Assembly: GCA_000091205.1 (NCBI GenBank)
Contig: AP006487.2
Reading direction: 5' to 3' (one strand)
Source of the DNA: Cyanidioschyzon merolae
Lineage: Eukaryota
DNA: 64,000 nucleotides
Made by a program: the position numbers and the translations under genes. Under the pieces are notes generated by a model. The model saw nothing but the letters and a program-made list of their open reading frames with translations, did no database searches and had not been told where the DNA came from. The number at the start of each line of letters is the position of its first letter. Within the stretch, counting starts at the first letter, position 1. Of the stretch, positions 1 to 56,560 are shown piece by piece.

Positions 1-1
1 G

Positions 2-298
2 CTGACGGAAGGGCGAATGGAAAGGAGAGCGAAAGTTCGAGGATTGCTTGCATCAGTAAGTACAACCAGTGATGGCAAGAAACGGATGGAGTTTGTGAAG
101 CGAGGTTTTAATGCCGCAATCAATCTACGGAGATGTGCGGTGCTAGAGAATAAACCTCCAGACTGGACAAGAAGGAACCTTGTTGGACAATCTCTCAAAG
201 GTGAACTATATGAGAGAAAGCTGGAAGCAGTAGTGGGTAGCCAGTCCAAAAAGACGGGGGGGGGGCGTCTGCACGTCAGCTGGAGACGATTTGTCTAA
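2..298 (+). CDS. C-terminal fragment of a Fanzor/TnpB-like RuvC nuclease (copy 1). The frame is open to the window edge, so it is truncated at the 5' side by the window.
   Basis: Translation ...KKRMEFVKRGFNAAINLRRCAVL carries the RuvC-III signature (R/K-D/G-x-NAAxNI) typical of TnpB/Cas12/Fanzor. It is about 80% identical to the C-terminus of the copy at 56435-56713 (LTEEQMERRATVRGLLASVSSTSGGKKRMEIVNRDLNAAINIRRCAML). Confidence 0.5.
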   Translation: MTEGRMERRAKVRGLLASVSTTSDGKKRMEFVKRGFNAAINLRRCAVLENKPPDWTRRNLVGQSLKGELYERKLEAVVGSQSKKTGGGRLHVSWRRFV

Positions 299-360
299 GG
301 CGCGTTCGCCGCCATTGCTGCGTACTGCCGGCGTCGTTCGACTTCGAACGGCGTTCGTGA
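130..360 (+). ncRNA. Conserved 3' segment of the Fanzor-like element, a candidate omega-RNA scaffold / right end. It overlaps the ORF end and extends past the stop codon.
   Basis: A nucleotide-level conserved block (...ggcgtctgcacgtcagctggagacgatttgtctaagg...cgttcgacttcgaacggcgtt) is shared with 56285-56560 and 44320-44580 (reverse complement) and with 6180-6300. The amino-acid C-termini differ between copies while the nucleotides are kept. It contains hairpin-capable inverted repeats. Confidence 0.35.
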
Positions 361-435
361 CCGAAGCTCATCCGCGGATCCAGCTGCACGCCGCTGCTTC
401 ATTCAGGACGCGTTGTATAACAACGTCAGGGAACC

Positions 436-756
436 ATGACGAAAGGAACATCTTCCAAGGGTCGCCGTCACGGCAAATCACATACACTCTGTATCCGTTG
501 TGGACGACGATCGTACCATATCCAGAAAAGTACCTGTGCGAGCTGCGGGTACCCGTCGCCGCGAAAGCGGACTTACAACTGGAGTTTGAAGAGCAAGCGG
601 CGACGCACTACAGGAACTGGGCGCATGCGGTACTTGAAGACGGTTGCTAGACGGTTTCGAAACGGGTTCCGCGAAGAGAACACTCGTAAGGCGATAAAGA
701 GGACAGTGGCTGCCGCTCCCGCACAGGAGAGCGGCCAGGAAGCAGCGAGCTCTTGA
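436..756 (+). CDS. RPL37: 60S ribosomal protein eL37
   Basis: Full-length match to eukaryotic eL37: [52 protein letters not shown]. It has the C4 zinc ribbon and is a single exon. Confidence 0.9.
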
Positions 757-2035
757 TTCGGAGTAGACGCGGCGCTACCCGTGTAGCACCGTATGCAGCG
801 CAGCCTCTCGTCGGAGAGCAGCGATTGAGGTTGCTAATGGGGTCTTTATGTGGTGAATCGAACTGGTGTAAAACTTCTTCCGAGTGTCCCCTAGCGCTCA
901 TACCAACACCCATGGACGTTACGTCGCTCGTATCGCGTACGCGGTGCGCGCTTGTCGCAGCACGTATTGCCGTGGCCCTTTGCGGGTCCGTCGAGCAACT
1001 TTGTACCACAGCTGCATGGCTTGCGCTCTTGTTTATGAGCCTGGTACGACGCGAGCCGATACGTTCCAGTCCCGACTGGAGCGCATCGGGTACCCGTTCC
1101 CGCTTGGAAGCTTGGGCACCCATCGCACTGCGTCGGCAGCGTTCCTAAATCGCGCATATCACCAACGATGGCCCGACACGAAATGGTTTCCGCGCGTCGA
1201 TTCTCTTCCTTCTGTCCTGAATAGGCGGAGAACATCATGGCTTGTCCATGCCTACCGGTGCATGAGCACCCATCCAGGAGTCGGTCGTGAGCGTTCTCGA
1301 TCAGTGCTCTGGAGGCCGCCAAGTTCATTTGAGGAAGCCCGACTTGCATGCGATGCGGCATGCAGCGGCGGGAAATGGCCTGCCGCTTCACACTGGGCGT
1401 AAAGTTGGGAGCAGTTGGCGTTGCTGACTCGCCGTTGTCGTTGTCGATGGCGAGTCGTGTACTTCGCTCGTGCTGAACTCGATGCAAAAATTGCTCGCTC
1501 GCATAGAAAACATGATATTCGAATCATGCGCATATGACGGACGGCGAATACGCGCTACAGCACATGGGCAAAGCTAGTCCACGCTGCGACTCGTATTCTT
1601 CCATCAAGCCCGAGGTTTCCCGATGGATAGGCCGAAGGTTTTCGCAGGTTTGCGATCAGCGCTAGCGCGGGCGCTGGGCATTCATTCGTGCTCCTGGCTT
1701 GTGCTTCGTCATCGAACTTGAGCTACTCCGCACCGCAATCATTCCCGGAAACGGCACTGGTTACTCTTCAACTGGCATGCATTTCGGTATTTCGCGGCAT
1801 CGACGACGGCGTACACTCCTGATGCACCACAGCGTAGAACTCTTGCTCCCGGGAGATGCCACTATTATCTTGCTTGCTGAACGTGTAAGCAGTTACGAAA
1901 CTAGGGCGCGCTGCTCCTCCATGCAAGTCGACAAATATCGTGTTCTGGAATCTGCTCTGATACATCCGTTCTACATCATAAATGAACGTATCATCTATGC
2001 TGGCGTCGTAGCTCGTTGTCCAGTACTGCGCGGCG

Positions 2036-5607: not shown

Positions 5608-5622
5608 CGCAACCGTTGCAAG

Positions 5623-5899: not shown

Positions 5900-6380
5900 A
5901 GATATAGGTATGGAGATTGAAGTCGAGGATCCTGGATTGCCTCTGTCCACGGGTGTCGGAAAAGAACGGGAATTTTCTCATCTTTTCGACGATCGAGCGA
6001 AGAAGACCAAGAAGAGGGGAGATGGACCACAAAAATGTGTTTGCCCGACGGGGCGATGACGAGAATCTAATCGCACAGAGGGCACGAGTTCTGGCAATCC
6101 CTGCATTGATGCGTTGCACCAGATGAACTGCATAGAACGGCTCGTGAACGGAGACTTCGACGTCACAAGCAATATCAGGAGATGTGCGGTGCTGAAAACG
6201 AGACTCGCGGAGCTGACGCGAACTAAATTCGAGTGGCAGCCTCTAATACCCCCAGTGTGCCTGGATAAAAACCGCAACCGATGGCAGTCGGCGGATAGAA
6301 AAAGACTGGGCGGTGTCTGCGCGTGGGCAGCTATATGTACTCTCGATGGTGGTAAAACATTGCACGTTTTATAAATCATA
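5900..6380 (+). mobile_element. Degenerate Fanzor-derived remnant (copy 5) retaining part of the RuvC-III region and the conserved 3' segment.
   Basis: ORF 6114-6374 encodes ...DVTSNIRRCAVL (compare NAAINLRRCAVL). The nucleotides atcaggagatgtgcggtgct ... aaaaagactgggcggtgtctgcgcgtgggcagct align to copy 1 at 120-300 with internal deletions. Confidence 0.4.
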
Positions 6381-7914
6381 TGCCGAAGAGCAAGTTCGAT
6401 TTGCAGCGTATGGAACCTAGTAGCGTTTCTTAAGCAAGTCTGGTCGTTTTCTACGTAATCAGAAGCATTTGCTCCGCCATCGCTACCTGAATGGAATCAT
6501 TGATCCTGCATCATCAACACTGATTCCGTTGCACAGGACGTACGTAGAGCGCAATGATCACCGTGTGACGCCATGGCTCGCCAAAGCTCCAGGATCCGAG
6601 CACTGTGCAGGGACCAGCGAAGCTGCCGACTTTGTGGTTCCTCAAATGATAACACCTCGATTCGCGTCGAACGGTCTTCTGATCCACCAAAAAAATTTGG
6701 TGGGTCGTGATTTTGCGTTCTCCAAGCACGCCTCCATACACTGCTGCATCAGAGAACCCACTCGAAATGATGCCGTGTCCGTTATTGAATGACGCTTCCG
6801 AGCACTGGGCCTGCATGAAGCCGGTAGTCGATCCCTGAACGCTTCATGCGCGGACACGTACTATGCATAAGACTCGGAAACTCCGGGCTGCACAGGTCCA
6901 TTGTCTGATGCTTCCAGCATCAAAGTCGATCCCCGCTGACTGCCTAGATGACAAGCGAGATCCGCGTACAAGCCCGAGATCCCGTGCATCCAGCATCAAA
7001 CGCGATTTCGCTCTACTGCCCAGAAGCGCAAGCATGAAAGCGTCTTGCTCCCGTATTCGACTGTTCCCGACAATGGTCTCGGGCATATGTTTGCTCCCGA
7101 ATGAATACACCTTCGTGGAGCGCGCAGCATAGTGCTTTCTTTCCATCGCGCAAGATCAGAAAAGTCTAACCAGTTCTACCACGGATGCGTGTCGCGCGCT
7201 GGGCGTCGTACACGACCACGATGCCGTGCATCCACCGATTCTCATGATGCAGACACGGTGTATCGAAGGAGTCGATTCTGAGTAGCCGAACGGTGTCGAT
7301 ACCAGCGCCTGGACCTCACCATTTCCGCGCACGCTTCTTCCTTCTTCTATGCCAGCAGCAGCGTTCCTACATAAAAAACCCGCGCCATGAGACCTCTATC
7401 CGTCTACTGGGATAGCATAGGCCGGCCGCACTTGCTTGGCCGGGCACATGCGCTCGATTCGAAATCCTGTCAAAGCACAGTGCCATCCACGTAACCTGCA
7501 AAAGAGCGGAGCTTCTCAGTAAAGCCTGTGTTTGCCGCCTGCCCGAACGAGGTATCAGAAACGTGCTCACCGACGCGCTGCGCACCGGCGCCTTCCAGCG
7601 CTGGAAGCAGTGCGCCTCGAGTGCACGGGTGCGGCGCCTGCCTGCCTGCCTGCCGGCTCCTCTCTATTCCGCTAGCGAACCAAGCACCCTGCTCTTTCCC
7701 CAGACACCTTGTCCACTGTGGAGGCCGCTCAGCTACAACTCCGACGTGCAGCGTCTGTCCACGATCAACACGAGTACGCACCTTGTGAAGGGTACAGTCG
7801 CGAGATACGTATGCTGGGCGCCAGCGCTGGCAGGTAGGCGGCGCCCCGCGCATTCTCTGCACACCCGAGGCGCGTTTTCGCGACTTTCCGTTACGTGAAG
7901 TTGGTGTCGGGTTC

Positions 7915-11934: not shown

Positions 11935-11999
11935 AGCGCCAATTCAACGCAAACAATTTCCGTTGTATACGATCATCTTCGGATTTTGGTTGAATTCGT

Positions 12000-16064: not shown

Positions 16065-19000
16065 ATCGTTCTCAGTTTTCCGCTGTTCTCGTATCCACTC
16101 GAACGTGCCTGTGTACGACGCCGCGTGCACAACGCAAAGATTGTATACGCACGCTGCGTGCATGCTGAGTCATCGACGCTCAGCGCGCGCACGCCTGTCA
16201 CGTCGAGCAGCGCGGCGGCGGCGAACACCAGGGCCACGTGGCCGCATGTCTAGGCGAGATGAGGGACGGAGTCGGGGCCGAGGGTTCCTGTGACACGGAC
16301 ACGTCACAGGGGGATGCGTCACGGCATGGACAGCACCCGACCCGAGATGTTGAGATACCTGATCGGGAGCGCGCGTCGACGTGCCCGCTCGAGCTGCATC
16401 GTTCCCGAACAGCATGCTCGTGATTGCCTACATGAATAGGCAGTGCCGCTGCTGACGTAAAACTGGGCGTTGAGGTCGCCTGCGTCAGGGCGCGCCAGTC
16501 GGTGAGTCAGTCAGTGCGGCGACGACGCTGGCGCTGAGGTCAGCGAGTCGTGCTTTATGGGGATATGGTTAGCGAGGGCCCTTGTACTGCCTTTTTGCGC
16601 TGGACGTGTGCGTGGTGTTCGCTGGGGAAGTATTCCGAGTGCCAGCAGCTGCCGGACGGAGGTATTTGTACGGGTTCAGAAAGAATCTTGAATCTGTGCC
16701 AAGCACAAGTTGTGGGTGCGCGTTTACTGCCTGGGTCCGACGCTTCCTCGGTAGGGACGGTTTTGCTCGTGAGCGATCGGTAGCAGTCTGGAAGCCCGTG
16801 AACAGCAGATTCGCGGGAACGACTCCCACCGAGGATCGTTCGCGCTCCAGCGAATGGGGATTGTTAAGGAAATCGTTGCCTCTGGCGCCCGAATCATCGG
16901 CTTGTGGGCCGTTCTTTTTTGGTCCAGCGCCTGAATACCGCTGCCTCGCAGTGAAGCGTCACTGGTGTTCCCGTCCCGAGTCGCCACGAAGATATCGTTG
17001 TCGACATTGCGTGTCGCAGACGGCTTGAGCTAGACTCGTACCCGTATCCAATGTTGTACAAGGGAATGCAGCTAGCGCTCTTGCTTCTTTCCGCCAGATT
17101 TGGGATACTTGTATGCCGTGCTTGTCGCTGTTGTGCGGCGGACCGGCCCTCGCCTCATCGACTGCGAATTGCTCGGAAGCTTCCGTAGCCGACATGCGCT
17201 TTTGGCTAGCACCGCCGCACCTCCAAGCACATGTGTCTGTGCGACCTGGGGGATCCTGCAGAAAAAGCCGCGCAAGCGACAGACGCCACGGAGTCTCATG
17301 GCTCAACCCGTGTCTCCGTTGAAATCGAATATGCATGGGAGGCCCGGATGCACGACCAGTATTCGTGAGGAACGAGCGCGCAAGCGAACGTTTTTATGTT
17401 TTCAAATGCTTGCCGCCACCTGGTATAGACATGGCAGACTTTCCGTCGGCTGCTATCTACGGGCACGGGCTTAGCGCATCACACGGATGCAAGATGCATT
17501 GCTCGCGGCTTGTCCAACCGAGACAACGCTTGCGGTTTCCGTTGTACGTGACGTGTCTCTGAACGCTCCCTCCAGTAGTGATTGGTAAACGCTCGCGTCC
17601 TCCTAGCGCTTACGATACCGACCAGCACACACACCACACCAGGTTAAGGCGAGTTCATGGTTCGCGCATGCCGTCCGGGCGAGCGTGACCTCGTCCGTTT
17701 CATTCGTTCCCGCTGCGTTCCCAAACGAAAGCTGTATCCGCTCGCCGATGTACACGACAAATCCATGGATGCACATGGGACGACTCTGGTCGGAACCGCA
17801 AATCTCTCGCGATGGACGGCAACTTCGGCGACGCCTTTCCGCATCCCGCATGGTTCCATCAACGCCTTGAGAGCCAAGTCCCCGCGCTTTTCGCATTGTA
17901 TCGGGCACACAGTTACTCGCCCGCTAGATAACTGGTTTGTTTCATGGATGTTTCGACAATATCGAGAGCCAGTCCTTTTTGTATAGAACATGAATGAAGA
18001 ACTCGAGACCGATGAGTGAGAAAATCCCGATCCAGGCACCACGCTTCAGCACATCGATCGTTTCTGGAGTGTACGATGCCGATGAGCCACTCGCGTCACG
18101 AGAGCTCGAGCCCTCAGCGCTCGTTCCAGCTCGCCGGAAGAGCAAGTTTTTCAGGAACGTCGACGCGGAGCGATCGCTCTCGGCGTTACGCTGCTCTGCG
18201 GTACTGCGTCGTATGTCGCCGTCTGGTGGTGCAACGAACGGCAGTGGCGTCCCTAGTCCGGGGCGGACGTTTTGAGTGAGACGGCGCCCTGCCGCGCGAT
18301 TGCTGCCACGCTTTCCACCGCCACCGCCACCTTTTCGGGCGTAAACGTTCCAGCCGTGGGCGCTGGCAGGTGCCGTCTCGCCGACAGCGCCTGTGTGTCG
18401 AGTGCGGACGTACCGGTGCCGGTCGAGCACGCCCTGCCCAATGAACAAGGTCCTCTTGTTTTCTGAATGCATTACACTCCAAAACTGCACCGCAGGTCCC
18501 GTTCTTGCGGTTAAACTTCACGAACACGGCTCGCACAGCACCACGTCAGTTGCGACTCGTCTGGTACGCAACGTTGAAGCGCCAATAGCGTCGCCCACGA
18601 GACACACAGGCTTGTTTGCGCGTGTCTCTGATTGCACCAAACTCGCTTTGCAACGCTCTCCCAAGCTAGGGCACCCCAAAAAGAACCTTTGTCGCAGCAC
18701 AAACAACCCGGTGCACACCAATCATTGACCTCAAGCGGCCAGTGCGCAGCCGACTCTCGACCGGCCCCGTCTCAAGCAAAGTCCTGAACAATACCCGTAT
18801 GTTTTTGATGCGCAATGGATCGCGTGCCAATCCGCTAGCATTGACCAAAAGACCAGATTCCACGTTGAAAGAACGATGCCGCTCGCCGACGCCCTCTGTA
18901 GTGCGGCAAACCGGGTCTGTCTCCATACCGCATTCGCACCAGCGTCATGGGCGCTATCGCGGACGATCAGGGCAGGCACTCGGCGCACGATAGAACCTAC

Positions 19001-19492
19001 GGAACGACCGGGACATCCGAACGGAAGTACAATTCATGGAACGTGAATGTAGGGTGCACGATGATGATGATGATGATGACGACCAACACTGTCCCGATGG
19101 GCAATACGCATCCCGGAAACTAGGATCCATGGTCCATGGAAACGTTCCGTGTCCATCAGGGAAATCGCCTTGCTCCGCCAGCGTGATCATCAATGTCCAT
19201 ACTATTCCAATAAAGTTCCATATGATGCTGCCTGCCCATGCGCATCGATGTCGCCAATTGCGATCCCGGCCTGCGCCGGCCTCGACGCCCGCCAGCCTGT
19301 GTCCTATCATCGATTCAGCGTCGGGCGCAGCGGGACTCCTGCGATCATCGGCTGGCGCGTTCGTCCACGTGTGCCTAGCGTACGCCACTGGCAGAGCGTC
19401 CGGGAACGTTCACGTGTTTTCCTGGGGCGCAGGTCAGTTGACTCTAGTTTGCGTGTGTAAGCGAAGCCTCAATACATTGTATCCTCTGTTTC

Positions 19493-32289: not shown

Positions 32290-33576
32290 TCAGCATTCCG
32301 ACAACTCGAAGCGTTCTGTGCCAAAGTAGCGCTCCGCAAACCATCCGATACCCGGTACCACCAATCCCTGTTCGTTGACGCCGCGATCGACGGCGCTCAC
32401 GACAAGGCGTACATTCGTCCATCCGTTGCCACATACCGCGGCGATAGCCTCGGGGCTGGCGATCAGCGACAGAACAATCATGTTACTTTGCATACACCCG
32501 ATGCGTGCCAGATCCGTAAGCACCGTGTTTAACGTTGCACCAGTGTCCAGCACCGGAAGCAGAATAAGGAGTTTGCGACGCGCAACGCCTGGTGGATAGC
32601 GGTGAAACTCGATCATGCGATTTCCGTCTGCACTGGCGACGACAGCGACTTTTCCAATGCGAACCTCCCGGATGACTTCACGAACACCATGCTCCATGGC
32701 TTCACCCCCTGGGCTTACGCTGATTGCCGCTATTCTGTTTGAGAACGAAAACCCCTGATAAACCTCACCTGTAGGTGTCGTGACTCGTTTCGTTTGAAAC
32801 GGCAGCATGTTCAGGGCCTCCTCCACTAAAAGGCGAATCATTCGGTCGACATAGAAGATGAACTGGTCCCTGGAAGCATCACAACGGCGGAAGCACGTAT
32901 GCAGGGCGCGAACCTGGCCTGTCAGCGGCATCTCATGCAGGTTTGTGTACAACCGATTGAGTCCACGCTGTTCAAGTTTTACCGCGATATGTTTCACCAG
33001 CAGGTCGATGGCAATGACGTTCTCGACGCCGCGTTGTATAATGATGTCGGCAAGTCGTTTTTGTGGATTGATAAAGTTGTCCAGCGCTGGTTTCACAGTC
33101 TTCTCATACTGGGCAAGAACGGACTCGACTGATCGACCGCGCTGAACAACATCACGTTGGATACGTCGACACAAGCATACATCCGCATCTTCGTCGACGA
33201 AAACCTTTAAATGCAGCAGCTCTCTGACTTTCTCATGATAAAACGTCAAGATTCCCTCCAGAATCAACACTTCTGTACCGCTGGGGAGCGTGATCTCCGG
33301 TCCACAGCGCTGGTGCGTCACGTAGTCGTAGCTCTGAAGGGACACGCTCTTGCCCAGCGCCAGCTCCTTGATCGCCGCAGCGCAGGACTCAAAGTCAAAC
33401 GCATTTGGCGAATCAAAGTCGTACTCTAGCGGATCGCAACCCGGCGGTAGGCCGTGGTAGAACGAGTCCAAGCAGAGCAGCGCGCACTGGTGAGACCCGA
33501 TCGCAGACACGATCCGCTCCACAACAGAGGATTTACCCGCAGCGGAGGGCCCTGCCACGCCAATAACAAAGAGCAT
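32290..33576 (-). CDS. Bifunctional uridine-cytidine kinase / uracil phosphoribosyltransferase
   Basis: N-terminal P-loop IGVAGPSAAGKSSV (uridine kinase) and a C-terminal UPRT domain (..LRA.....R.....G..I..ILRAG..M.....VGIQR.E); 428 aa. Confidence 0.9.
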   Translation of the reverse strand: MLFVIGVAGPSAAGKSSVVERIVSAIGSHQCALLCLDSFYHGLPPGCDPLEYDFDSPNAFDFESCAAAIKELALGKSVSLQSYDYVTHQRCGPEITLPSGTEVLILEGILTFYHEKVRELLHLKVFVDEDADVCLCRRIQRDVVQRGRSVESVLAQYEKTVKPALDNFINPQKRLADIIIQRGVENVIAIDLLVKHIAVKLEQRGLNRLYTNLHEMPLTGQVRALHTCFRRCDASRDQFIFYVDRMIRLLVEEALNMLPFQTKRVTTPTGEVYQGFSFSNRIAAISVSPGGEAMEHGVREVIREVRIGKVAVVASADGNRMIEFHRYPPGVARRKLLILLPVLDTGATLNTVLTDLARIGCMQSNMIVLSLIASPEAIAAVCGNGWTNVRLVVSAVDRGVNEQGLVVPGIGWFAERYFGTERFELSEC

Positions 33577-36501
33577 TTGGGCATGAAGGCCTGCAGATCT
33601 CGAGGCGGTCGCTGGTGCGGTAGCACTGCGAACCAGTGCTGCAGGGTGGAACGCTTCGCGCGCCCCGGCGTGCGACGCTAACGGTAGCGCAGAGGCGCTG
33701 CTCAGGCGGCGCTGTGCGACTGTGTAAGTGTGCGCTTGCTATCTATAAATCTATATCTATATCTATATGGGAACGCAAAGATGCAGTCAGTGGAACCCAA
33801 AATTGTCCCATAACCATTTAAAATAACTGAATATCCACGTGCAGATATCTCCTGGCCTTTCCCGACCGGCGCCCTGCTGTCGGCTTTAGTTCCTCCTTGT
33901 GTATCTCGACCCTGAGAGGCTATTCCATAAAGTTCGATCGTGTCAGCTCCGTGGGTCCCGTCTTCTGCACTACGAATCTTCAACTATTACTTGCGGCATT
34001 GAAGTCGGGGTTTACGAACTCCATACGTGTCTTGCCATTGGTTGTGCACATGAATGCGACGAGTCCTCGAACTCGTGCCTTGTGTGCAATTTGGGGCTCT
34101 GTCAGATCGTCCAGCTTTCCTACCTCCGAAGCGCTCCGCAGCTTTTCCTGCGTCTCGACACTCTCAAGTATGATCCCTAGTACATCCCTTAATATTCCGA
34201 AATGAACTCACTTCTCTACGTCCCTAGGTGAGGACCTTACTGGATGTGTAGGACTCGCGGAGGAAAGACGACATGTGCCTCTGTGTGTCATCATGCTGAA
34301 ATCTGCAGTGATTCACCCAGTGGAGCGATGATTACTTTTCACGATAGAAAACACTCCCTCAATTGGGTTGAACTGTGGAGCGTACATAGGAATGAAAAGC
34401 AGTACCAACTCAATAGAATCGACAAAAGCTCGAACGCAAAAAGAATGGTTAAACACTAACTTGTCCAGTTGAAGGACGTTGCCAGACGTCGGGGGAAGAA
34501 TAAAGCCCCATCAACTGAAAAACAAACCGACATCCCTGTGTTTCATATCCACTGTGACTTTTCAGGAACAATATAGTTGAAATTTCGGTGCAAGATGGCC
34601 GATGAATGACCTCGCCATGTTTTTTTATTCAACTGTACCTCTGTGTTTTCAGGGCAATACGAACAAGAAGTTGAGAAACGGAGACGCTCGTGGTGGCTAG
34701 TATCGTCGCTTTTGGTTTCCGCTGGGTGTTCAACGGTTCGTTTTCTATCATTGGCTGCTAGCAGTCTATGACAATACAGGATTTTGGCGCAGAGCGCATC
34801 TACTTGTTTCTTTCAGTGTTCCTGAAACATCCGAGTACGGTGGTATGACGAATATGAAGGAGGAATACAATCCTCCTTCTACTATTCAGTAAAGAATTTG
34901 AATCTTTCAGGCAACTCTTTGACGATCTATAAGGTATACTACATCGTGATTTCGAACTCCTGTCCTACACCGCAGCTGTGATGGTACAGCATTGAGTTGA
35001 AATACTAGAAAAAGGAGCTGATTCGCCAACACCGGCATACACACTGCAGGTCATGAATATTCATACCCTTACCCAGGGCAGCCTTGGGATATTTTCCATG
35101 CAGTGGCTTCGGTTTTCTCTTTATTATATTCGGCATTAAACACGCCGGTCTCTTCCCTGTCTCTACCTCAGATGACACAAGTCGAGGGATGCTGGCGGCA
35201 GCGTTCGCGTCCCGATTTCGCTACTTTCTGCTGCTATCGACCCATTTGATGCACGGGCAGAAGTTGCAATTCATGCATCGATTGCAATGCTCGTCTTCTT
35301 ATTGTACTGCGTCGGGGCTCCCTCCGCATCGACGACTGTATACAGTTGCCAGGTGTTCCCATATGCCCGCCTCATCTTCTCCAAAATCCGCTTTATGGCT
35401 CAAGAAGGCTGGCCTCATCGCTCAGTGCATGCTGTTGCTAGGCGCAGAAGACTCACCTCGATGTACTCCCCCGTATACACGTTCGGCAGCATACCATATA
35501 AATATGGGCTTCTTCTAGAAGATCCCCTCGGCGAGTACGTCGCCCGCTGCACATGCAAGCACCTCGTGCCGCTTTCGATAAAACAGATGTGTTAGGCGAT
35601 TTTGCCTACGATGGCACAAGTACCCGACGAGAAAATCCAGACTGGAGAACAAGCCCAGAATTTTCGATCCATCTACGTACCAGTCACGCAAAGCGATGAC
35701 ATGCACTCCACCGGAAGTGATTCCTAGCGTGTCTGAAGTCTGAGACCCGCCCCCTTTCCACATACCAACAGAAGAGAGCGGAGGCGCTGGAAGCGTATCA
35801 CACGAGCGGGATCATGCTGCCGTCCAATGCCGTTTTATCTGCAGCCACAAAGAGATGGAGTTTGTCTTTCGACCGGAATCGATTCGTAGACGAGCGCTGT
35901 GCAGTGTACGTTCACCATGAGCCTTGTAAATATGTCGTCGAGTGACGGCTTCGAGTCTTCGTTCTTCTTCAATCCAGCGGCGCGAATCGCTGCGCCAATG
36001 CGTTTCTTTGAAATGGGAAAATCGAAAACTTGAACAATGCATGATACGAGCCTGCTACGCATAAGGAATGAGGCACCACATCCGAAAACGTTCGGAAAAT
36101 ACATCTCAAGGCGGGAACACATCAAGCAGCGCAGAGTTCCTGTTTCATCCGTCACGGAGTTTCGACACACTGCGCTGTCATGGGTGCGCACCGGCCGCTG
36201 TTATTCCAAAATGCACACAGGCGTTCCGAGCCGCAGCGCCGGCCCTGAGCCCTTTTGAAAGCTTGACAAGCGACCAGCGCTTCTGCACCTCGGGGAAACA
36301 GAAGCGCGGAACCTGGTACCGTGCGCGTCGGTGGACGCAGCGCGTCCACAAGAGCCTGGTGGACGGCGGCGTTTCGTCGAGTTTGCAGGACGGGAAGCTC
36401 CTGGGTCCTGCCTATGGGAGCCAGGCACCTGACCTGTGCTACTAGCTCGGTACGTGTGTTGTTCAGGTTTCCTGTAGCGGCGAATCGCGTACCTGCTGGC
36501 C

Positions 36502-41784: not shown

Positions 41785-44331
41785 TTACGTGCGTGAGAGC
41801 CTAAGCCATGTCTCTAGTGCGCACGTTCTCTCCAGACGCTTACGCGCTTCTGGGAATGCTAATAGTTGATGCAGCACCTGATCGACCAGCGGTTGCAGGC
41901 GATCTCGAAATCTAAGGGCGAAGGTTTTGCGTCCCACAAGATATGAATAAAGACGATGGCGTCTCAAAATAGCGTAAAAAGGATCCGAGGTGTCGTTACC
42001 TTCAAGAAGAAGCTGCAGCAGAAATTCGTGAACGCGCTCTTCCGGTGAATAGATCATCTCATGGACACCGGGGAGTTCCTCCATGAGCGACCAGCACGGA
42101 CGCAGTAGCGTTACCTTCCAAGCGAACTTGAACAAATCATGGTTACCGTTTGTGACAATCTCTGCTAACGAGGCGAAGAGCGCACATTGGATACGGGGTA
42201 GCCTCTGATATGGCTGTGTGATGGACGAGCGCAGGACATCCAACACCGCCTGGACGAGACGGCGCTCACGAAGTTCCACTGCAACCGGCACAAGCCGATA
42301 AAACGTTGCCAGAATATCGTAGGCTTTGTGGCGGATCTCGTTCTGCTCCACAGCCAGCATGAAAAGGACCGATCGGAGCGCACCACTTTGAATAAAGTCG
42401 CGAGCGTCTCCGATGCGGGAATCGTAAAGCGCATCCAAATGGCGAGCATCCGGCGCTAGCACCTGCAGTACCTGCTGGCCTGCACGTGGTACGACCATAG
42501 CATTTTCCACGGATACTGGACTTGCCTCAGCAGGTGCTGGTGGTGGCGATGTGGTCTCAGAACCCGACCGCATGATCGCCATGCAGGCCTTGATATGCTT
42601 GAGACAATACTCCAGGTAGGGATCGCTGGTGCTCCGAACGCGTCGCTCGACTGCAATCCACAACGGCGATAGTTGAAAGCTCGTTTCACCCGGAGCCTGG
42701 CTGTGCAAAGCATCATCAAGAATGGCATAGGGCTTGCAAGTTGCTTCAGTGATGATGCGCTCAAACAGCGCTCTCGTGGACGGCGCAGCAAAACGCAGCA
42801 AATCTAACCAAAGGCTCGCTTCCAGCGAACACGTTTCGCCTGAGTGTGGATTACGCAGCAGGCCGTATTCGTTCAGGTATTGCAGGAAAAAGGCGTACAG
42901 CGGGGCTCTTGGAAGCGCCCTCAACTCGAAGAGATCCTGCAACCGGGTCGCTAGACGGATGCTCCGGTTCTGGGAGAACATTGCTCCGAGCGTTCGTACG
43001 AGTTCAGCGCCTGTGAACGAACAAGCGTAAGTGATTGTTTCTGGTGCCTTTGGTATGATCTTTGTGAGGTCGAGACCAGACTGAAAAATCTGCTCAGGGC
43101 GCTTCTCGATGCACAGGCGGAGAAGACGCAAGCCGCGCGCAAGCCGGAGCGAACCGAGGGTATTGGAAGCTCGCATCGCCTCTTGTCGGATATAGTCAAT
43201 CAGCACGGTTAATGACGGGATTGTCTTGCCTCCGTTTTCAAGTGCTGCAATCCACGCATTGCAAGTCACAAAGTCTAGTCGCATATTCTGCGGCAATGAG
43301 AATGCTGCTGTACATGTACATTGCCGCAGCGCAGCGATCGCAAGGGCAACTTGCTCGCTTTTCCAGATCGATTGGCTTTGGTTGGTATCCTGGAGCGCTG
43401 ACTCCGACGTAAGCGCTTTGAGAAATGCCAAAGACATTTCGGGGCCACCTGCTTGTAACATGCTTTGAGCGAGGCGAAGCTTGACGGAACTGGAAAGATT
43501 TTCGCGTGCGAGATATTGCGCTAGGGAGCGCTGGTCTCGAGTTTGCGCGATGATCTTGATCAGACCTGCTCGGTGTTGCTCGCCTCTTACGAACTCAACG
43601 ATGCTAAGGAGGCTACCAAGCATACGACCGCTGTTGAGCCAGGTTGCCGTGCGGAGTACTCGAAGGAGTCGTCCTATATCATTGGCGCCTTGGCGAAACC
43701 GGATTCGTTGGAGCACCTGCCGAAGGAGTACTGCATACAGCTCTCGTAGGTCCGGGGCGAACGTATTCGAAGCGAGAGCGCTCGCGTCGAGCCACTGCAA
43801 AAGCGACTTTTCCAATGTTGTGGTTCTTTTCTCCAGTTCGGAGAGGCGCCTTCGCTTTCGTTGCTGTCTCTGGCGCTGCTTTTGCAAAAGCTGAACCAGC
43901 AAGTCGCGGTTTGGTTGCACCGTCAAAAACGTTTCCCGTGCGTAACCGCTGCCGAAGCGGGCAACGGCAGCGAGAAGGCGAAGGGCACTCATCGTCAGAG
44001 CTGCCTGTTCGGATCGCAGAAACCCCTGCAGTACAGCGCGGTACTCCGTTAGCAGCGCCTGTGCTAACCCCTGAAAATCGACCGACTTCGCTTCTACTTC
44101 CGGCGATGTGGAGTGTTGGGTTCGATCATCTGCATTTGGAGTCAGAAGCGTTGCCAGCTGTGTTGCTGCTAAGGCTGCTTGACTGGGGTTAGCACTCACC
44201 AGTGCCGAAAGTAGGGTGCCCGCAGATGGCTGAGCATTTTCGTCTGCAACCTTCGCTGACTCGTGCCCTCGATGCATCTGGTTTGCACCAGCACCTTGGA
44301 CTCCAAAGTCAGGTATCCCTGAGGTCATTGT
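41785..44331 (-). CDS. Large alpha-helical repeat protein (HEAT/ARM-like) of unknown function. The ORF's first Met (44454) lies inside the Fanzor-derived repeat, so the true start is probably the internal Met at about 44331 or on an upstream exon.
   Basis: An 889-aa uninterrupted ORF with coding-like composition, leucine-rich helical segments and a polybasic/acidic stretch (QRQRQQRKRRRLSELEKR). Confidence 0.4.
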   Translation of the reverse strand, partial: TMTSGIPDFGVQGAGANQMHRGHESAKVADENAQPSAGTLLSALVSANPSQAALAATQLATLLTPNADDRTQHSTSPEVEAKSVDFQGLAQALLTEYRAVLQGFLRSEQAALTMSALRLLAAVARFGSGYARETFLTVQPNRDLLVQLLQKQRQRQQRKRRRLSELEKRTTTLEKSLLQWLDASALASNTFAPDLRELYAVLLRQVLQRIRFRQGANDIGRLLRVLRTATWLNSGRMLGSLLSIVEFVRGEQHRAGLIKIIAQTRDQRSLAQYLARENLSSSVKLRLAQSMLQAGGPEMSLAFLKALTSESALQDTNQSQSIWKSEQVALAIAALRQCTCTAAFSLPQNMRLDFVTCNAWIAALENGGKTIPSLTVLIDYIRQEAMRASNTLGSLRLARGLRLLRLCIEKRPEQIFQSGLDLTKIIPKAPETITYACSFTGAELVRTLGAMFSQNRSIRLATRLQDLFELRALPRAPLYAFFLQYLNEYGLLRNPHSGETCSLEASLWLDLLRFAAPSTRALFERIITEATCKPYAILDDALHSQAPGETSFQLSPLWIAVERRVRSTSDPYLEYCLKHIKACMAIMRSGSETTSPPPAPAEASPVSVENAMVVPRAGQQVLQVLAPDARHLDALYDSRIGDARDFIQSGALRSVLFMLAVEQNEIRHKAYDILATFYRLVPVAVELRERRLVQAVLDVLRSSITQPYQRLPRIQCALFASLAEIVTNGNHDLFKFAWKVTLLRPCWSLMEELPGVHEMIYSPEERVHEFLLQLLLEGNDTSDPFYAILRRHRLYSYLVGRKTFALRFRDRLQPLVDQVLHQLLAFPEARKRLERTCALETWLRLSRT

Positions 44332-44900
44332 CCAGGCCTTCAACGCCGTTCTAAGTCGAAGGACGGCAGTGTACAGTAGTGGCGAGAGGCCCGCCCTAGA
44401 CAAGAAGTTTCCAATTGATGTGCAGACGCCTCCCAGTTTTCCTCGACCGCCCACCCATTACTGCTTCCAACTTTTTCTCATACAGTTCGACATAAAGAGG
44501 TTGTCCAATAAAATTTCATCTTGTCCACTCTGGAGGTTTCGTCTCCAGCACCGAACATTTCCTGAGACTGATTTTTTTCCATTGCCAAAACGTTTACTCA
44601 GGCCAGCGTTCTCCGATTATGCGCATTTTTCTTTTCCTACTTTTTTTGTTTTATTTTTTCAGTGCGCGGTGAAGTATCCGTCAACCCCCTACCTCCATGT
44701 TACATTACCCATACTTCATCTCGGATATTCTGGTCGTTTCGTACGTCCTATTGTGTGTGCCTAGTGCCTGCCGAAAGCGACCGCAATGGCGCGTATAGCA
44801 CCGGTGCGGTCGCTGCACGGAGACAGAACGGCGTTGCCGTACCACAAAGGGTGTCGACTTGAGGCGTGGTATCGATGGTGTCCCTGTTGTCTCGTCTTTT
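44320..44900 (-). mobile_element. Degenerate short Fanzor-derived element (copy 3) retaining the conserved 3' segment and a decayed C-terminal coding remnant.
   Basis: 44369-44580 aligns with 56343-56540 (agtagtggcgaga..cccgccctagac...gtgcagacgcctccca...catcttgtccactctggaggt). 44330-44370 aligns (reverse complement) with copy 1 at 300-350 (actgccgtccttcgacttagaacggcgtt). Confidence 0.45.
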
Positions 44901-53531: not shown

Positions 53532-55591
53532 TGCCGATCGGTGTCCGCGAGGTTACGGACATGTGAGGTGCTTGAAACCTGAGGAGCTGTCGGAGGTTGT
53601 TTGTGTCAGAGCCTGACCTGCTCTCACTCTCTGTGCCCTAGCAGTGTTGAAGGAATGTTGTCGCACTTGCAAAGCAGCGCATGCTCGGGAGCAGGCTCGA
53701 GACCCTGGTGTATAACGATGGAATGCAGGGGCTCGGCGTTCCAGCAGTAGTTTGACGCAGCTCCAGACGCAGAAGGGTTATCCTTGTATTGTGTACGATC
53801 TGAACATCTGCAGTGGCACGCTCCGCGAGGTCCGTTGCAGAACTAGTCTCAATTTATGCTATTGAATAGCGTACGCGGACACGAAAGGATGTCTGGACCG
53901 TCATAGACGAGCAGCAACTCGCTGCTGGTGCAGTGCGGCCATGCTCTGATGGACGACTTGTGTTCGCCCTCGTGATCGACCGATCGATCGATGGATACTT
54001 GGCGTGCCCGTGGATGTATATCCGTAAAAGCCGTGCTCTAAGCGGCGTTCGCACAATAGAAAATGGGAATCCATAGGAACCGGCCGCACAAGTCGTGCGG
54101 AAGATGATGCGTTGGGAGCCATAGCGCTACACGCTTCTAGTCTATGGAAAAGCATGTCATGCAGTTCTGTAATCTGCTGCGCAATGTATCCGCATCAGTT
54201 GGGTTCTCTTAAGATCCTAAGTGTATGACGTTCCTCGTGTATGCGATACTTGGATGCGAGCATGATAGCAAACTCCAGGCTGGAGCTTGATGGATGAAAT
54301 GCGTATCCTGCGGCCCTCGGAGTTGTGCCTTTTGGATCGCGACATGTCCAGAGACGCGCACTTGCCATGTCACCTTGTTGCTCGTTTGACTGAGATGATA
54401 AGCAGCCGCTAGACTGCGACGCGAATCCGCATCATTGCAACGCCTTACAGGGGCGCGACAGCATCCCCGCTACGCAAAACTGTATCATGGTTGATGTCAG
54501 GCTATCTCAGGATGTGGCTCTCTGTACTTGGTATCCGACTCGACGCTAGAGTCGTGCTATGCAGCGGATCGCCTGAGGCCACAGGAGTACCGATTTGTCT
54601 GGTTACGAGGTAGGTAAACTGTCTGGCTTTCCGTGATAGAGGTATAAGGTCATTGGATAATGTGGATAAGCTGTGACATTTTGCGGTACCGTGCGAACAC
54701 TTTTGTTCAAGATTCTATGAAATCCTTGTCAAAGCTGCAGCTCGTCGTCGTGCTGCTTACTATGCTCATCGGTTGTCAAATCGCAGGTAGTTAGCAATGT
54801 GCTTCCAATGCACTTGTTTCTGGGCAGCTATTGGAATCATCAATGCGAGGCTATTCCTAACCAAAAAAGGAGGCAATGGCACACGTTTTGACGCAGTTCG
54901 AGTCAGCACATGGGAATCCTCGCTGGCGTCTCGGAAGCGCATGATTGGTTGAAAGAATGTATCGAGCGGTCCGCACGGATGAAGTAAGCGCCAGCTTTTC
55001 TCGCATAGAGAGCGGCTCTTACAAATTAGAGCCATTTTGAAACAAATTTGAATTGCTGTGTGCTCATGAAACTCTGACAAACGTACGAAATAAGATTTCA
55101 GAAGACCTAGCACCAGCTCCAGAACTGTACATTACAGTTCTCCACTCCAAAGCGCTCGCACCCAGGTATTCGCGCTCACTCGAGGCCTGCCAAAGCGCCA
55201 ACCGGGAACCTGGGCAAATCCCGGACAGCGCCTAGCTGCTGCCATGAACATTGCCCAACGTCACTCTACAGGCCGAAGCGATCGTGCCCTTGACTTTCAT
55301 AGATATCGAATTCATAATGACTGCAGCTGAAGCGCGCGTCGGGTACGAGAGCTTTTATGCAGTCTCGCCCGGACGCCGCACCGTACGACATACACCCGCG
55401 ACGCGATGTATGCCTCCATTCCCACCATTACAGGCTCTATTGCGTACACGCTCTTGCATCCCTTCACCGCTGCTGGCAAAGATGTGGTACACAATTGGAT
55501 AGCGCATCTTTCGTGGAAGCGCATCCGCAACTGCGGAAACGGTGCTGCCACATCGGTCGTTATGCGAGCCTACGCAATGAACCTAGTATAA

Positions 55592-56050
55592 TCATTCGTT
55601 GCTCGTGGCCAGCAGCAGGGTGTACATACGCGCCATCGACCAGAAGCCTCGTTTATCACCACAGCGCAGCAGGTTCCCAGCGTCGCAGTTCAGTGGAGAC
55701 GACGGCTCCGGCTCTGAGAGGAGCAGTTGAATCGCCCTCAGACACGACGCAAGGCTCCAGGCTGGCGACCACGCCGACTGCAGAATGTCAAGGCAAACTT
55801 CGCCGGTGCGGAAGTTGATGTTTGGGTGAAAAATTGGAGTCAGAAAGCGCACTGTCGGTGGCACGAGCGGGTACGCAGCCGGTAGTGTCAGCGCGACGCG
55901 AAAACAGCCTCCCTCGTAAGGTGTAGCGGCGGGTCCGCGCAGGTAGCCTTGCAGCCGGAGTGGGTTGCCTTCCTCGGGCTCCAGGCAGAAGTTTGTCGGG
56001 TCTTCGCGGAGCTCTCTAAGCTCTGTGAGCAGACGTTTCTGCAGAAGCAT
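55592..56050 (-). CDS. Ubiquitin-conjugating enzyme E2
   Basis: UBC fold with the active-site motif FHPNIN..TGEVCLDIL and a downstream W/P; 152 aa. Confidence 0.85.
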   Translation of the reverse strand: MLLQKRLLTELRELREDPTNFCLEPEEGNPLRLQGYLRGPAATPYEGGCFRVALTLPAAYPLVPPTVRFLTPIFHPNINFRTGEVCLDILQSAWSPAWSLASCLRAIQLLLSEPEPSSPLNCDAGNLLRCGDKRGFWSMARMYTLLLATSNE

Positions 56051-56284
56051 GGTGCAGTCCTAGGGTTCGCGTTGGGGTACGAAAAGCTGCAAGCGAGCAC
56101 TGCCTGGAGGTAGCGCGAACGCTAGAGTGACTCTCACCAGCGAACACACCTAGAGCGAAGGATGCAAGTATGCTTAGTGGCACCGAGTGCGCGGATAGTG
56201 ACGAAAACAAGTACAGCGCCTCAAGAGCGATACAGAGTGCACAGAACTGCGCCTTTAGCGAGTAGGATCTATGGAGGGCTTTGG

Positions 56285-56560
56285 TATTTCGGATGACGGC
56301 AGCGACAACAAACGCCTTTCCAGAAAAAAAACGCGCCCGCGAGTGGGGCAAAGTAGTGGCGAGAAACCCGCCCTAGACGAAACGTCTACAGCTGAGGTGC
56401 AGACGCCTCCCAACCGTTTTGGACCGGCCAACTACTACAGCTTGCAATTCTTTCTCATATAGGAACACTTTGAAAGGTTGTCCCACAAAATACCATCTTG
56501 TCCACTCTGGAGGTCTCCCTCCAGCATCGCACACCGTCTGATGTTGATGGCGGCGTTCAA
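56285..56560 (-). ncRNA. Conserved 3' segment of the Fanzor-like element (copy 2), a candidate omega-RNA scaffold; about 150 nt of it lie beyond the stop codon.
   Basis: Same conserved block as copies 1, 3 and 5. Read on the minus strand, ...ggcgtctgcacctcagctgtagacgtttcgtctaggg... contains the hairpin tagacg-ttt-cgtcta. Confidence 0.35.

What the first reader, a model, noticed from the sequence alone, without database searches (positions are those of the whole stretch)
130..56560. 3' ends of the Fanzor-like elements sit directly upstream of same-strand host genes
The conserved 3' end of copy 1 (+, ends about 360) lies 76 bp before the RPL37 start (436, +). Copy 2 (-, ends about 56285) is about 235 bp upstream of the E2 gene start (56050, -). 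Copy 3 (-, ends about 44320) runs into the 5' end of the 889-aa gene (41785-44331/44454, -) and supplies the first 41 codons of its annotated ORF. Three of three well-defined 3' ends are promoter-proximal and co-oriented with the downstream gene. This could reflect an insertion-site preference such as open promoter chromatin or a target motif. It could reflect selection-tolerated positions in a compact genome, or read-through transcription providing or borrowing promoter activity. It could also be chance.
Basis: inference. Interest (0 to 1): 0.5.

Follow-up and report, generated by a model that had tools for sequence, protein, structure and literature searches.

The report
Fanzor 3' ends abut host gene starts

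Summary
The window is C. merolae 10D chromosome 5. The repeats are the known Fanzor1 family CMe-1A. They end at 355, about 56294-56310 and 44342. The same-strand starts of RPL37e (436), an E2 gene (56050) and a URB1-like gene (44328) lie 80, about 250 and 13 nt further on. Copy 3 does not supply codons; the gene starts at ATG 44328.

Three cases alone are weak evidence, so I surveyed 44 non-redundant 3' ends in the window and in Cyanidioschyzon-like metagenome contigs. The next gene is co-oriented at 32 of 39 metagenome sites (p=7e-5). At 24 of 44 sites its ATG lies within 150 nt, against 5.5% for random intergenic positions (p about 4e-19). The genes are diverse housekeeping genes, including HSP70, RPS4e, ATP synthase beta, KTI12 and eIF5B. 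A second 3'-end type, with two more window copies, shows the same tendency. Chance is excluded.

Most likely the omegaRNA-encoding end is transcribed outward, and in a haploid compact genome only insertions that keep the downstream gene expressed persist. Oriented targeting of 5' leaders is not excluded. No transcript-start data were available, and I found no prior report of this bias.

The parts
1..355 (+). Copy 1. This is the 3' portion of a Fanzor1 CMe-1A element, cut by the window start. It holds the C-terminal coding region (stop TAA at 296-298) and the non-coding tail with a terminal hairpin that ends in GAACGGCGTT.
436..756 (+). RPL37e gene. Its ATG lies 80 nt after the end of copy 1, on the same strand.
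   Evidence: Pfam PF01907, E=2.4e-25; sequence
5925..6395 (+). Short non-autonomous element (MITE-like) of about 470 nt with a Fanzor C-terminal remnant and the second ('type C') 3' end. It sits in the divergent spacer between the gene at 4435-5607 (-) and DHDPS at 7915 (+). The boundaries are good to about 15 nt.
   Evidence: nhmmer 6154-6324, E=1e-18; family alignment
18872..19070 (+). Solo fragment of the 5' module (TE-N2_CMe-like), about 420 nt upstream of the acyl-CoA synthetase ATG at 19493 (+).
23441..23662 (+). Fanzor coding fragment (residues 607-672) with no detectable 3' end. It lies in a convergent spacer and is not promoter-proximal.
   Evidence: tblastn; no nhmmer hit
33780..34260 (-). 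5'-truncated Fanzor copy (residues about 640-751) with the type C 3' end. It ends about 200 nt upstream of the uridine kinase ATG on the same strand. An (ATAG)n TATA-like run lies at the junction.
32290..33576 (-). Uridine kinase gene (BAM79395).
44342..44880 (-). Copy 3, an internally deleted element. A 5' module (44573 to about 44880, about 85% identical to 58827-59104) is fused directly to the last 230 nt of the 3' end (44342-44573). The 5' boundary is uncertain, and an RT-like ORF fragment lies further upstream.
41785..44328 (-). URB1/Npa1-like gene of 847 aa. Its ATG lies 13 nt after the end of copy 3.
   Evidence: Pfam; P0177 identical gene call and 848-aa orthologues
56294..59120 (-). 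Copy 2, a full-length but degenerate CMe-1A element. It has a 5' module, a Fanzor pseudogene with stops and frameshifts that keeps the RuvC motifs GADPGN, VDEFRTS and NRDLNAAINI, and a subfamily-B 3' end.
55592..56050 (-). E2 ubiquitin-conjugating enzyme gene (PEX4-like, BAM79402). Its ATG lies about 245-260 nt after the end of copy 2.
   Evidence: Pfam UQ_con
59397..62654 (+). Divergent neighbour of copy 2. It is a repeat-rich ORF with a C-terminal Hint module, and its start lies about 280 nt from the 5' end of the element.

Best explanation
These are old, mostly dead copies of the C. merolae Fanzor1 transposon family CMe-1A and of a sister subfamily. Their 3' end encodes the C-terminus of the nuclease, followed by a roughly 60-nt structured tail. 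In Fanzor/TnpB elements this region is the omegaRNA scaffold, and its guide is read from the flanking DNA.

Shown: across the species these ends lie non-randomly just upstream of co-oriented host genes, often 0-150 nt from the ATG. The elements sit mostly in divergent (5'-5') intergenic regions.

Inferred, step 1: the organism is haploid and many of the genes are essential, so the genes must be transcribed from inside or through the 3' end. The 3' end would then act as an outward-reading transcription unit. This is the same outward transcription needed to make an omegaRNA with a flank-derived guide, and it also supplies the 5' leader, and probably the promoter, of the downstream gene.

Inferred, step 2: the genomic pattern is mainly a survivorship filter. 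In a compact genome, insertions whose outward transcription replaces the interrupted leader are tolerated. Insertions that fire antisense into a gene's 3' end, or that split a promoter from its gene, are lost.
For: Identity. The window is C. merolae 10D chromosome 5. The family is described in PMC3627910 and PMC1955436. A profile of the family hits solved Fanzor1 structures (9CF0, E=1.2e-18).

Pattern. I examined 44 non-redundant 3' ends, and each downstream gene is unique. The next ORF of at least 150 aa is co-oriented at 32 metagenome sites and opposite at 7 (p=7e-5). The count is 35:7 when the window sites are called by Pfam. The median distance to the ATG is about 68 nt. The ATG lies within 150 nt at 24 of 44 sites, against 5.5% for random intergenic position-by-orientation combinations in the same loci (p=4e-19).

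Host genes. Pfam verifies RPS4e, HSP70, ATP synthase beta, PGM, G3PDH, KTI12, eIF5B, an ABC transporter, an M18 peptidase and a Macro-domain protein, with N-termini that match the profile starts. For KTI12, profile position 1 aligns to residue 1 and the ATG lies 16 nt after GCGTT.

Upstream side. The nearest gene upstream is divergent at 14 sites and tandem at 6, and lies 400-3000 nt from the Fanzor ORF start. Site classes are divergent 10, tandem-sense 5, tandem-antisense 3 and convergent 1. That is what is expected if ends facing a gene's 3' end are removed.

Other support. The independent second 3'-end type is co-oriented at about 10 of 13 sites and includes head-to-head pairs that each face a gene. 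The only two copies with intact ORFs both face gene 3' ends (Fisher p=0.024), which argues against obligatory targeting of 5' ends at insertion. The elements are reported to be transcribed (PMC1955436). A terminal 10-12-bp hairpin is conserved in structure between subfamilies A and B despite different sequence.
Against: No transcript 5'-end data could be reached, and a 2025 paper states that no TSS or TATA box is known for any C. merolae promoter. Outward transcription is therefore an inference, not an observation.

No convincing promoter motif is shared by the two 3'-end types. The conserved CTATATGAG lies in coding sequence and is absent from type C.

The one orthologous comparison shows no clear purifying selection on the 3' end. 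Divergence of the 3' end is 4.2% and 1.5%, against 3.4% and 3.2% for the element body.

RNAalifold found no significant consensus structure with covariation.

Survivorship alone has to explain why few copies sit 150-1000 nt upstream of genes.

The survey uses metagenome contigs of close relatives, home-made ORF-based gene calls, and 3' ends that are good only to about 20 nt. The intact-copy argument rests on two copies.
Confidence: 0.5

Rival explanations
1. True integration-site preference. The unknown transposition machinery inserts the element in a fixed orientation into 5' leaders or promoter-proximal DNA. One possible route is single-stranded non-template DNA in transcription bubbles or R-loops, as expected for an HUH or rolling-circle type transposase. 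Another is open chromatin at divergent promoters. Outward transcription would still be needed for the hit gene to survive.
For: Distances cluster very tightly next to ATGs, with a median of about 68 nt. Sites are enriched in divergent spacers and depleted in convergent ones, 10 against 1, although 3'-3' spacers are usually the safest places for a transposon. The element has no TIRs or TSDs, a constant 3' end with a terminal hairpin, and heterogeneous or truncated 5' ends (PMC3627910). These features are typical of rolling-circle or single-strand transposons.
Against: No conserved target motif is seen after the 3' end. The 5' boundary could not be defined, so no TAM or target could be read. No transposase is encoded. 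The two intact copies are not at 5' ends. No young or polymorphic insertions were available to separate insertion from selection; all copies are about 82-84% identical to each other.
Confidence: 0.3
2. Chance combined with genome compactness. Intergenic spacers are short, so any element is bound to be near some gene, and three of three means nothing.
For: Orientation alone for three cases gives p=0.125. The genome is compact, with about 20 genes in 54 kb.
Against: The orientation count is 32:7 (p=7e-5). An ATG lies within 150 nt at 55% of sites against 5.5% expected (p=4e-19). Random intergenic positions have a median distance of 666 nt to a co-oriented start.
Confidence: 0.02
3. The element borrows from the host rather than giving to it. 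It lacks its own terminator or polyadenylation signal, so Fanzor and omegaRNA transcripts need a co-oriented downstream gene for 3'-end formation.
For: Co-orientation is common and the spacers are very short. No obvious terminator follows the 3' end.
Against: This does not explain how the host gene, now cut off from its promoter, stays expressed. Dead copies show the bias even though they gain nothing from expression. The two intact ORFs sit in the opposite configuration.
Confidence: 0.08
4. RNA-guided cis-regulation. The guide of each omegaRNA is by construction the leader of the adjacent gene, so Fanzor or a dead derivative could bind there and regulate the gene. This would resemble bacterial TldR repressors derived from TnpB.
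For: The geometry fits, because the guide would equal the host 5' leader. Two intact Fanzor ORFs exist in the population. TldR precedents exist (PMC10705468, listed).
Against: At an occupied site the base 5' of the target is the element end, not a TAM, which in TnpB systems prevents self-targeting (established knowledge). Most copies are dead. There is no evidence of selection on the 3' end.
Confidence: 0.05
5. The elements are spliced out of host 5' UTRs as introns, like introner elements, so the host promoter upstream of the element still drives the gene.
For: Insertion in the sense orientation within leaders is what introner-like elements show.
Against: The 3' end finishes in ...GAACGGCGTT, with no conserved AG or polypyrimidine tract. 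Only 0.5% of C. merolae genes have introns (PMC1955436). The 5' ends are heterogeneous.
Confidence: 0.03

Closest known systems
Fanzor1 family CMe-1A / TE-N2_CMe of C. merolae (Bao & Jurka 2013, PMC3627910), the same as the '253-copy interspersed element related to WSSV WSV486' of Nozaki et al. 2007 (PMC1955436)
   Same: It is the same organism. The element length is about 3 kb. There are no TIRs or TSDs. The copies are about 80% alike, the 5' module is shared with a short element, and the ORFs are truncated.
   Different: Those papers describe the copies as unclassified and 'distributed randomly on all chromosomes'. Neither reports the local rule found here, a 3' end abutting the start of a co-oriented gene. 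Neither reports the second 3'-end type.
Maize Mutator insertions in 5' UTRs that provide an outward-reading promoter (bioRxiv 10.1101/2023.06.05.543741, listed; not read in full)
   Same: A DNA transposon sits in the 5' leader of a host gene. Transcription that starts in the transposon end keeps the gene expressed.
   Different: Mu has TIRs and makes 9-bp TSDs, and its promoter activity has been shown experimentally. Here the end is an omegaRNA-type 3' end, the orientation is strongly biased, and promoter activity is only inferred.
Promoter-targeting and position-specific eukaryotic elements: P element, S. pombe Tf1, and Dictyostelium TRE5-A upstream of tRNA genes (own knowledge; the P-element heat-shock promoter paper PMC1592238 is listed)
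   Same: Insertions are strongly enriched just upstream of genes. TRE5-A also has a fixed orientation and distance.
   Different: Those cases rest on known integrase or tethering mechanisms, and de novo insertions have been mapped. Here only ancient insertions are seen, so targeting cannot be separated from selection.
Bacterial IS200/IS605 TnpB elements and their omegaRNA (own knowledge; PMC10278001 is listed)
   Same: The nuclease ORF overlaps a structured 3' end, and the guide lies in the flank. There are no TIRs or TSDs, and there are subterminal hairpins.
   Different: No TnpA is present and the host is eukaryotic. A rule linking the right end to host gene starts is not a known feature of these IS elements.

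Membership tests
Fanzor1 (eukaryotic TnpB-like RNA-guided nuclease) | RuvC-like catalytic motifs in the Fanzor arrangement: DPG for RuvC-I, D-E-F-R-T-S with the shifted glutamate, and N-R-D-x-N-A-A-x-N for RuvC-III | tested here: met
   Copy 2 reads GADPGN, VDEFRTS and NRDLNAAINI. The same columns are invariant in alignments A2 and A4.
Fanzor1 (eukaryotic TnpB-like RNA-guided nuclease) | Sequence homology to experimentally characterised Fanzor1 proteins | tested here: met
   Profile A4 hits Parasitella parasitica Fanzor1 (9CF0, E=1.2e-18, across the RuvC-I to RuvC-III segments) and G. theta Fanzor1 (9CER, E=0.036). The narrower profile A2 gave no hit. Local Pfam gave none. The precomputed family is DUF8286.
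Fanzor1 (eukaryotic TnpB-like RNA-guided nuclease) | A conserved non-coding 3' end that overlaps the ORF end and encodes the omegaRNA scaffold, with the guide in the flank | tested here: inconclusive
   The last 250 nt are 80-90% conserved and the stop codon lies about 60 nt before the end. The terminal hairpin folds in subfamilies A and B (z about -3 in well-kept copies). RNAalifold gave no significant covarying structure. No RNA data were available.
Fanzor1 (eukaryotic TnpB-like RNA-guided nuclease) | RNA-guided, TAM-dependent DNA cleavage | not testable with these tools
   This needs biochemistry. The 5' boundary and the TAM could not be defined.
CMe-1A element of Bao & Jurka | An element of about 3 kb in C. 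merolae with many diverged copies, no TIRs or TSDs, and a 5' part shared with a short element | tested here: met
   Organism. Copy 2 is about 2.8 kb. Median pairwise identity is about 82-84%. The 5' module also occurs alone and in either orientation. Paper text.
Promoter- or 5'-leader-targeting transposons | Insertions enriched upstream of genes beyond the random expectation | tested here: met
   An ATG lies within 150 nt at 24 of 44 sites against 5.5% expected. The orientation count is 32:7.
Promoter- or 5'-leader-targeting transposons | The bias is present at the moment of insertion, in de novo or polymorphic insertions | not testable with these tools
   All copies are old. Orthologous sites in close relatives are filled, and distant species lack the element entirely at the URB1 locus.
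Transposon ends with outward-reading promoters | Transcripts start inside the element end and continue into the flanking gene | not testable with these tools
   This is inferred only from ATGs that lie 2-20 nt from the end in a haploid organism. No TSS data exist for C. merolae promoters.

The most novel reading that the evidence does not exclude
The omegaRNA-encoding 3' ends of Fanzor1 elements may have become the working promoters or 5' leaders of a substantial number of C. merolae housekeeping genes, possibly more than 100. Because each omegaRNA guide is then the leader of its neighbour gene, the few intact Fanzor proteins could even act on these genes in an RNA-guided way. That would be a genome-wide co-option of an RNA-guided transposon end for host gene expression.
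Probability: 0.15. Interest if true: 0.85.

Novelty: new variant of a known kind. Interest (0 to 1): 0.62.

Why it matters
Fanzor elements are studied mostly as genome-editing nucleases. Almost nothing is known about how they live in eukaryotic genomes, how their omegaRNAs are transcribed, or what they cost or give the host.

C. merolae is haploid, nearly free of introns, genetically tractable and has a fully finished genome. About 5% of that genome is this one family. A rule that the guide-RNA end sits on the start of a host gene makes several questions directly testable with existing tools such as RNA 5'-end mapping, reporter assays and targeted deletions:
- Does the omegaRNA unit carry a Pol II promoter?
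- Do host genes depend on it?
- Is there oriented targeting of transcribed leaders?

It would also give the first structural information on C. merolae promoters, which a 2025 paper says is lacking for every gene. If the bias turns out to be plain survivorship, it is still a clean example of how a compact haploid genome filters transposon insertions.

Tried and rejected
- The repeat finder on the whole window was swamped by the 12/18-nt tandem array, so I replaced it with a masked self-BLAST.
- Exact look-ups of RPL37e and of the 389-aa BSD protein, meant to extend the window leftwards and see the whole of copy 1, found nothing on record.
- Local Pfam does not recognise the Fanzor protein. The narrow profile A2 gave no PDB hit. 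The broader profile A4 was needed.
- I tried to define the left end, and from it a TAM or target motif. The 5' regions are mosaic, and homology continues into different upstream repeats in different copies. I abandoned this.
- I searched for empty sites. No downstream gene has an unoccupied orthologue among the loci. The URB1-like orthologues in Cyanidiococcus and in another relative lack the element but are too diverged (53-56% protein identity) to align the insertion point. Ten contigs carrying the uridine kinase gene all show the same filled arrangement.
- I hoped to find transcript contigs from Logan assemblies that would show TSSs, but the tool returns the longest (genomic) contigs first.
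- The test for selective constraint on the 3' end (copy 2 against L040 and L042) was inconclusive.
- RNAalifold on 26 3' ends gave no significant structure.
- A TATA-like CTATATGAG about 145 nt before the end is conserved, but it lies in coding sequence and is absent from the second 3'-end type, so it is not evidence for a promoter.
- I checked generality in distant Fanzor1 relatives (30-33% identity). Two of four are followed by co-oriented genes, which leaves the question undecided.
- I considered and rejected the introner (spliced-out) idea because the end has no conserved AG.
- Literature searches found no prior report of the bias.

Full report
**What the window is**

Exact look-ups of seven window proteins return Cyanidioschyzon merolae 10D entries on a 528,682-bp record, which is chromosome 5 (BAM79383-BAM79402, with CME193C at 36.5 kb). 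The genome is compact and almost free of introns. A simple codon-bias ORF caller, trained on Pfam- or cluster-supported window genes, recovers about 19 genes. The right part of the window (CCT, ATP5/OSCP, E2) matches the gene content that Nozaki et al. give for subtelomeric homologous blocks (PMC1955436).

**What the repeats are**

A masked self-BLAST finds three related 3' ends. Their coordinates are 1-355 (+), 44342-44573 (-) and 56352-56666 (-). It also finds a shared 5' module at 44573-44851 and 58827-59104.

Copy 2 (about 56294-59120, minus strand) is a full-length pseudogene. Its three-frame translation carries GADPGN, VDEFRTS and NRDLNAAINI. Copy 3 is an internal-deletion derivative in which the 5' module is fused to the last 230 nt. 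Copy 1 is cut by the window start.

Homologues are abundant in hot-spring metagenomes. A profile of diverse homologues hits the solved Fanzor1 structure of Parasitella parasitica (9CF0, E=1.2e-18) and, weakly, that of Guillardia theta.

The family is already described. Bao & Jurka call it Fanzor1 CMe-1A: about 150 copies, a 3-kb consensus, no TIRs or TSDs, and a 5' part shared with TE-N2_CMe. Nozaki et al. counted 253 copies of a 3.2-kb element with a truncated ORF related to WSSV WSV486. They described it as 'distributed randomly on all chromosomes', as about 5% of the genome, and as transcribed.

**Checking the observation**

Conservation among about 44 copies stops at TTCGACTTTCGAA[C/A]GGCGTT. 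Subfamily B carries a further TGTTGTCGCTGCCGTC. The ends and the following starts are:
- Copy 1 ends at 355, and the RPL37e ATG is at 436.
- Copy 3 ends at 44342, and the ATG is at 44328.
- Copy 2 ends at 56310, or about 56294 with the extension, and the E2 ATG is at 56050.

Pfam confirms the three genes.

The statement that copy 3 supplies the first 41 codons is not right. Only the mechanical GTG-started ORF reaches into the element. An identical 847-aa gene call and 848-aa orthologues in Cyanidiococcus and in another relative start at ATG 44328.

A profile search adds two more 3' ends of a second type ('type C'). This type shares the Fanzor C-terminal region but has a different last 80 nt or so. 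One lies at 6154 to about 6395 (+) and the other at 34005 to about 33780 (-). The second is about 200 nt upstream of the co-oriented uridine kinase start. The first is 1.5 kb upstream of co-oriented DHDPS. A Fanzor fragment at 23441-23662 has no 3' end and sits in a convergent spacer.

**Is it more than chance?**

In the window alone the evidence is thin. Orientation gives p=0.125. About 6.7% of intergenic position-by-orientation combinations lie within 260 nt upstream of a co-oriented start, so three of three gives about 3e-4, but the threshold was chosen after the fact.

I obtained 80 metagenome loci encoding relatives of the protein, all from Cyanidioschyzon-like contigs. Some are orthologous to the window copies at 95-98% identity. 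I located their 3' ends, merged sites that share a downstream flank, and obtained 44 non-redundant sites, including the three in the window.

The results are:
- The nearest downstream ORF of at least 150 aa is co-oriented at 33 sites and opposite at 9. Two of the nine are window sites that the ORF caller mis-called, because RPL37e and E2 are short.
- For metagenome sites only, the count is 32:7 (p=7e-5). The result holds for ORF thresholds from 150 to 300 aa.
- Distances from the element end to the first ATG of a co-oriented gene have a median of about 68 nt.
- The ATG lies within 150 nt at 24 of 44 sites and within 500 nt at 30 of 44. For random intergenic positions and orientations in the same loci the figures are 5.5% and 15.6%, with a median of 666 nt (p=4e-19 and 8e-15).

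The downstream ORFs are all different and are genuine host genes. They include RPS4e, HSP70, ATP synthase beta, phosphoglucomutase, G3P dehydrogenase, KTI12, eIF5B, an ABC transporter, an M18 aminopeptidase and a Macro-domain protein. Their Pfam profiles start at or near residue 1. For KTI12 the ATG is 16 nt after GCGTT, which abuts the subfamily-B end. For G3PDH it is 2 nt, and for the URB1-like gene 13 nt.

On the other side of the element, the nearest gene is divergent at 14 sites and tandem at 6, and lies 400-3000 nt from the Fanzor ORF start. The elements therefore sit mostly in 5'-5' intergenic regions with their 3' end against one of the two genes. The type C ends behave alike. About 10 of 13 are co-oriented and 7 lie within 300 nt. 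They include head-to-head pairs in divergent spacers, each facing its own gene.

Counter-examples exist. At L001 the 3' end faces the 3' end of a GRAM/VASt gene at 480 nt. Others are L021, L056_14193, L059, L066 and L078.

**How it most likely works**

The pattern itself is shown. What follows is inference.

C. merolae 10D is haploid, and many of the genes concerned are essential. Their start codons lie 2-120 nt from the end of a 0.5-3-kb insertion, so they must be transcribed from within or through the element's 3' end. In TnpB/Fanzor systems (established knowledge), the omegaRNA is read out of the 3' end into the flank, because the guide is flanking sequence. An outward transcription unit at this end is therefore expected in any case. 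Nozaki et al. report that the elements are transcribed.

I consider it most likely (0.5) that this outward transcription supplies the leader and promoter of the downstream gene, and that the distribution is chiefly a survivorship filter. Sense insertions in a leader compensate for the damage they cause. Ends that fire antisense into a gene's 3' end, and insertions that split a promoter from its gene, are removed. This predicts the observed site classes: divergent 10, tandem-sense 5, tandem-antisense 3, convergent 1. It also fits the fact that the only two copies with intact ORFs (L001-L003 with 752 aa, and L021) both face gene 3' ends (Fisher p=0.024).

The main rival (0.3) is real, oriented targeting of transcribed 5' leaders, for example through single-stranded non-template DNA. 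It is favoured by the tightness of the clustering and by the rolling-circle-like anatomy: no TIRs or TSDs, a constant hairpin-bearing 3' end, and ragged 5' ends. The two explanations are not exclusive, and both need outward transcription.

**Weak points**

- No TSS data could be reached, and none is known for any C. merolae promoter.
- No shared promoter motif was found.
- The one orthologous comparison shows no clear constraint on the 3' end.
- There is no covariation-supported RNA structure.
- No empty sites are close enough to align.
- Gene calls are ORF-based, and the 3' ends of diverged copies are extrapolated to about 20 nt.
- In distant Fanzor1 relatives from other organisms the picture is mixed. 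GFAT and RNase HII follow co-oriented at 264 and 113 nt after the stop, but two other cases have an opposite ORF next.

**Comparison with what is known**

The element is a member of Fanzor1 and is the known CMe-1A family. What is not in the papers I could search is the local rule, and the genome paper calls the distribution random.

In function, the nearest analogue is maize Mutator in 5' UTRs with an outward-reading promoter (listed). The nearest analogues for position are promoter-targeting elements such as P, Tf1 and TRE5-A (own knowledge).

I rate this a new variant of a known kind: a known type of transposon-host relationship, shown for the first time for an RNA-guided-nuclease transposon, with unusual strength, in a minimal haploid eukaryote.

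Noticed in passing
window 6154-6395 (+) and 33780-34260 (-); loci L007 4209, L030 13566, L032 8672 and 10534, L064 5080, L066 8636, L078 5011, 13664 and 13969: This is a second Fanzor-derived repeat family ('type C'). It shares the C-terminal coding region and the start of the 3' tail with CMe-1A but has a different last 80 nt or so. Many copies are short non-autonomous elements (MITE-like) of about 450 nt with their own 5' part (GAAATCGAGGATCC...). Some form head-to-head pairs in divergent spacers, each facing a gene.
   Followed up: partly
L001-L003 (Fanzor ORF at 10001-12259 in L001) and L021 (829-3108): Two loci in the metagenome population keep an intact Fanzor ORF (752 aa; 759 open codons) with all the RuvC motifs. 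Both face the 3' end of the next gene, unlike most degenerate copies.
   Followed up: partly
window 44853-45800 (-), and L012 around 7831: An ORF fragment with an RT-like motif (PGVDGIATEWMK) lies directly upstream of copy 3's 5' module. It is part of a longer repeat shared with L012, so the 5' regions of the elements are mosaics of other repeats.
   Followed up: partly
window 26767-27883 and 38054-39171: A 1.1-kb direct duplication, 97.5% identical, unrelated to the Fanzor repeats.
   Followed up: no
window 59397-62654 (+): A 1085-aa ORF made largely of 12/18-nt tandem repeats, with strong GC and AT skew and a C-terminal Hint (hedgehog/intein-type) module. It is the divergent neighbour of copy 2.
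   Followed up: no
window 50174-56050: The CCT, ATP5/OSCP and E2 genes match the gene content that Nozaki 2007 lists for subtelomeric homologous blocks. The E2 protein has a paralogue at least 90% identical on the 584,452-bp chromosome. Copy 2 may therefore have been duplicated together with such a block.
   Followed up: partly
5' module, e.g. window 58950-59104 and 44700-44853; loci listed: The shared 5' module contains a conserved core, GTGGTACGGCAACGCCGTTCTGTCTCCGTGCAGC, followed by TATA-like GCTATAAG or GGTATATAA. An 11-nt stretch (CAACGCCGTTC) is the reverse complement of the element's 3'-terminal GAACGGCGTTG. Solo modules occur in either orientation, often facing the divergent upstream gene.
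   Followed up: partly
L082 (Cyanidiococcus yangmingshanensis VWRR01000004.1) compared with window 32290-44328: Synteny of the URB1-like, URO-D, hypothetical and uridine kinase genes is conserved. The divergent spacer in front of uridine kinase is 544 nt in Cyanidiococcus and 2926 nt in C. merolae, where it holds the type C remnant. No Fanzor or 3'-end homology was found in L082.
   Followed up: partly
P0100; L100 378-3181: One metagenome gene call fuses a Fanzor C-terminal remnant to a methyltransferase, a by-product of the tight co-oriented spacing. In a distant relative, the Fanzor gene directly follows a DDE_3 (Tc1/mariner) transposase gene.
   Followed up: no
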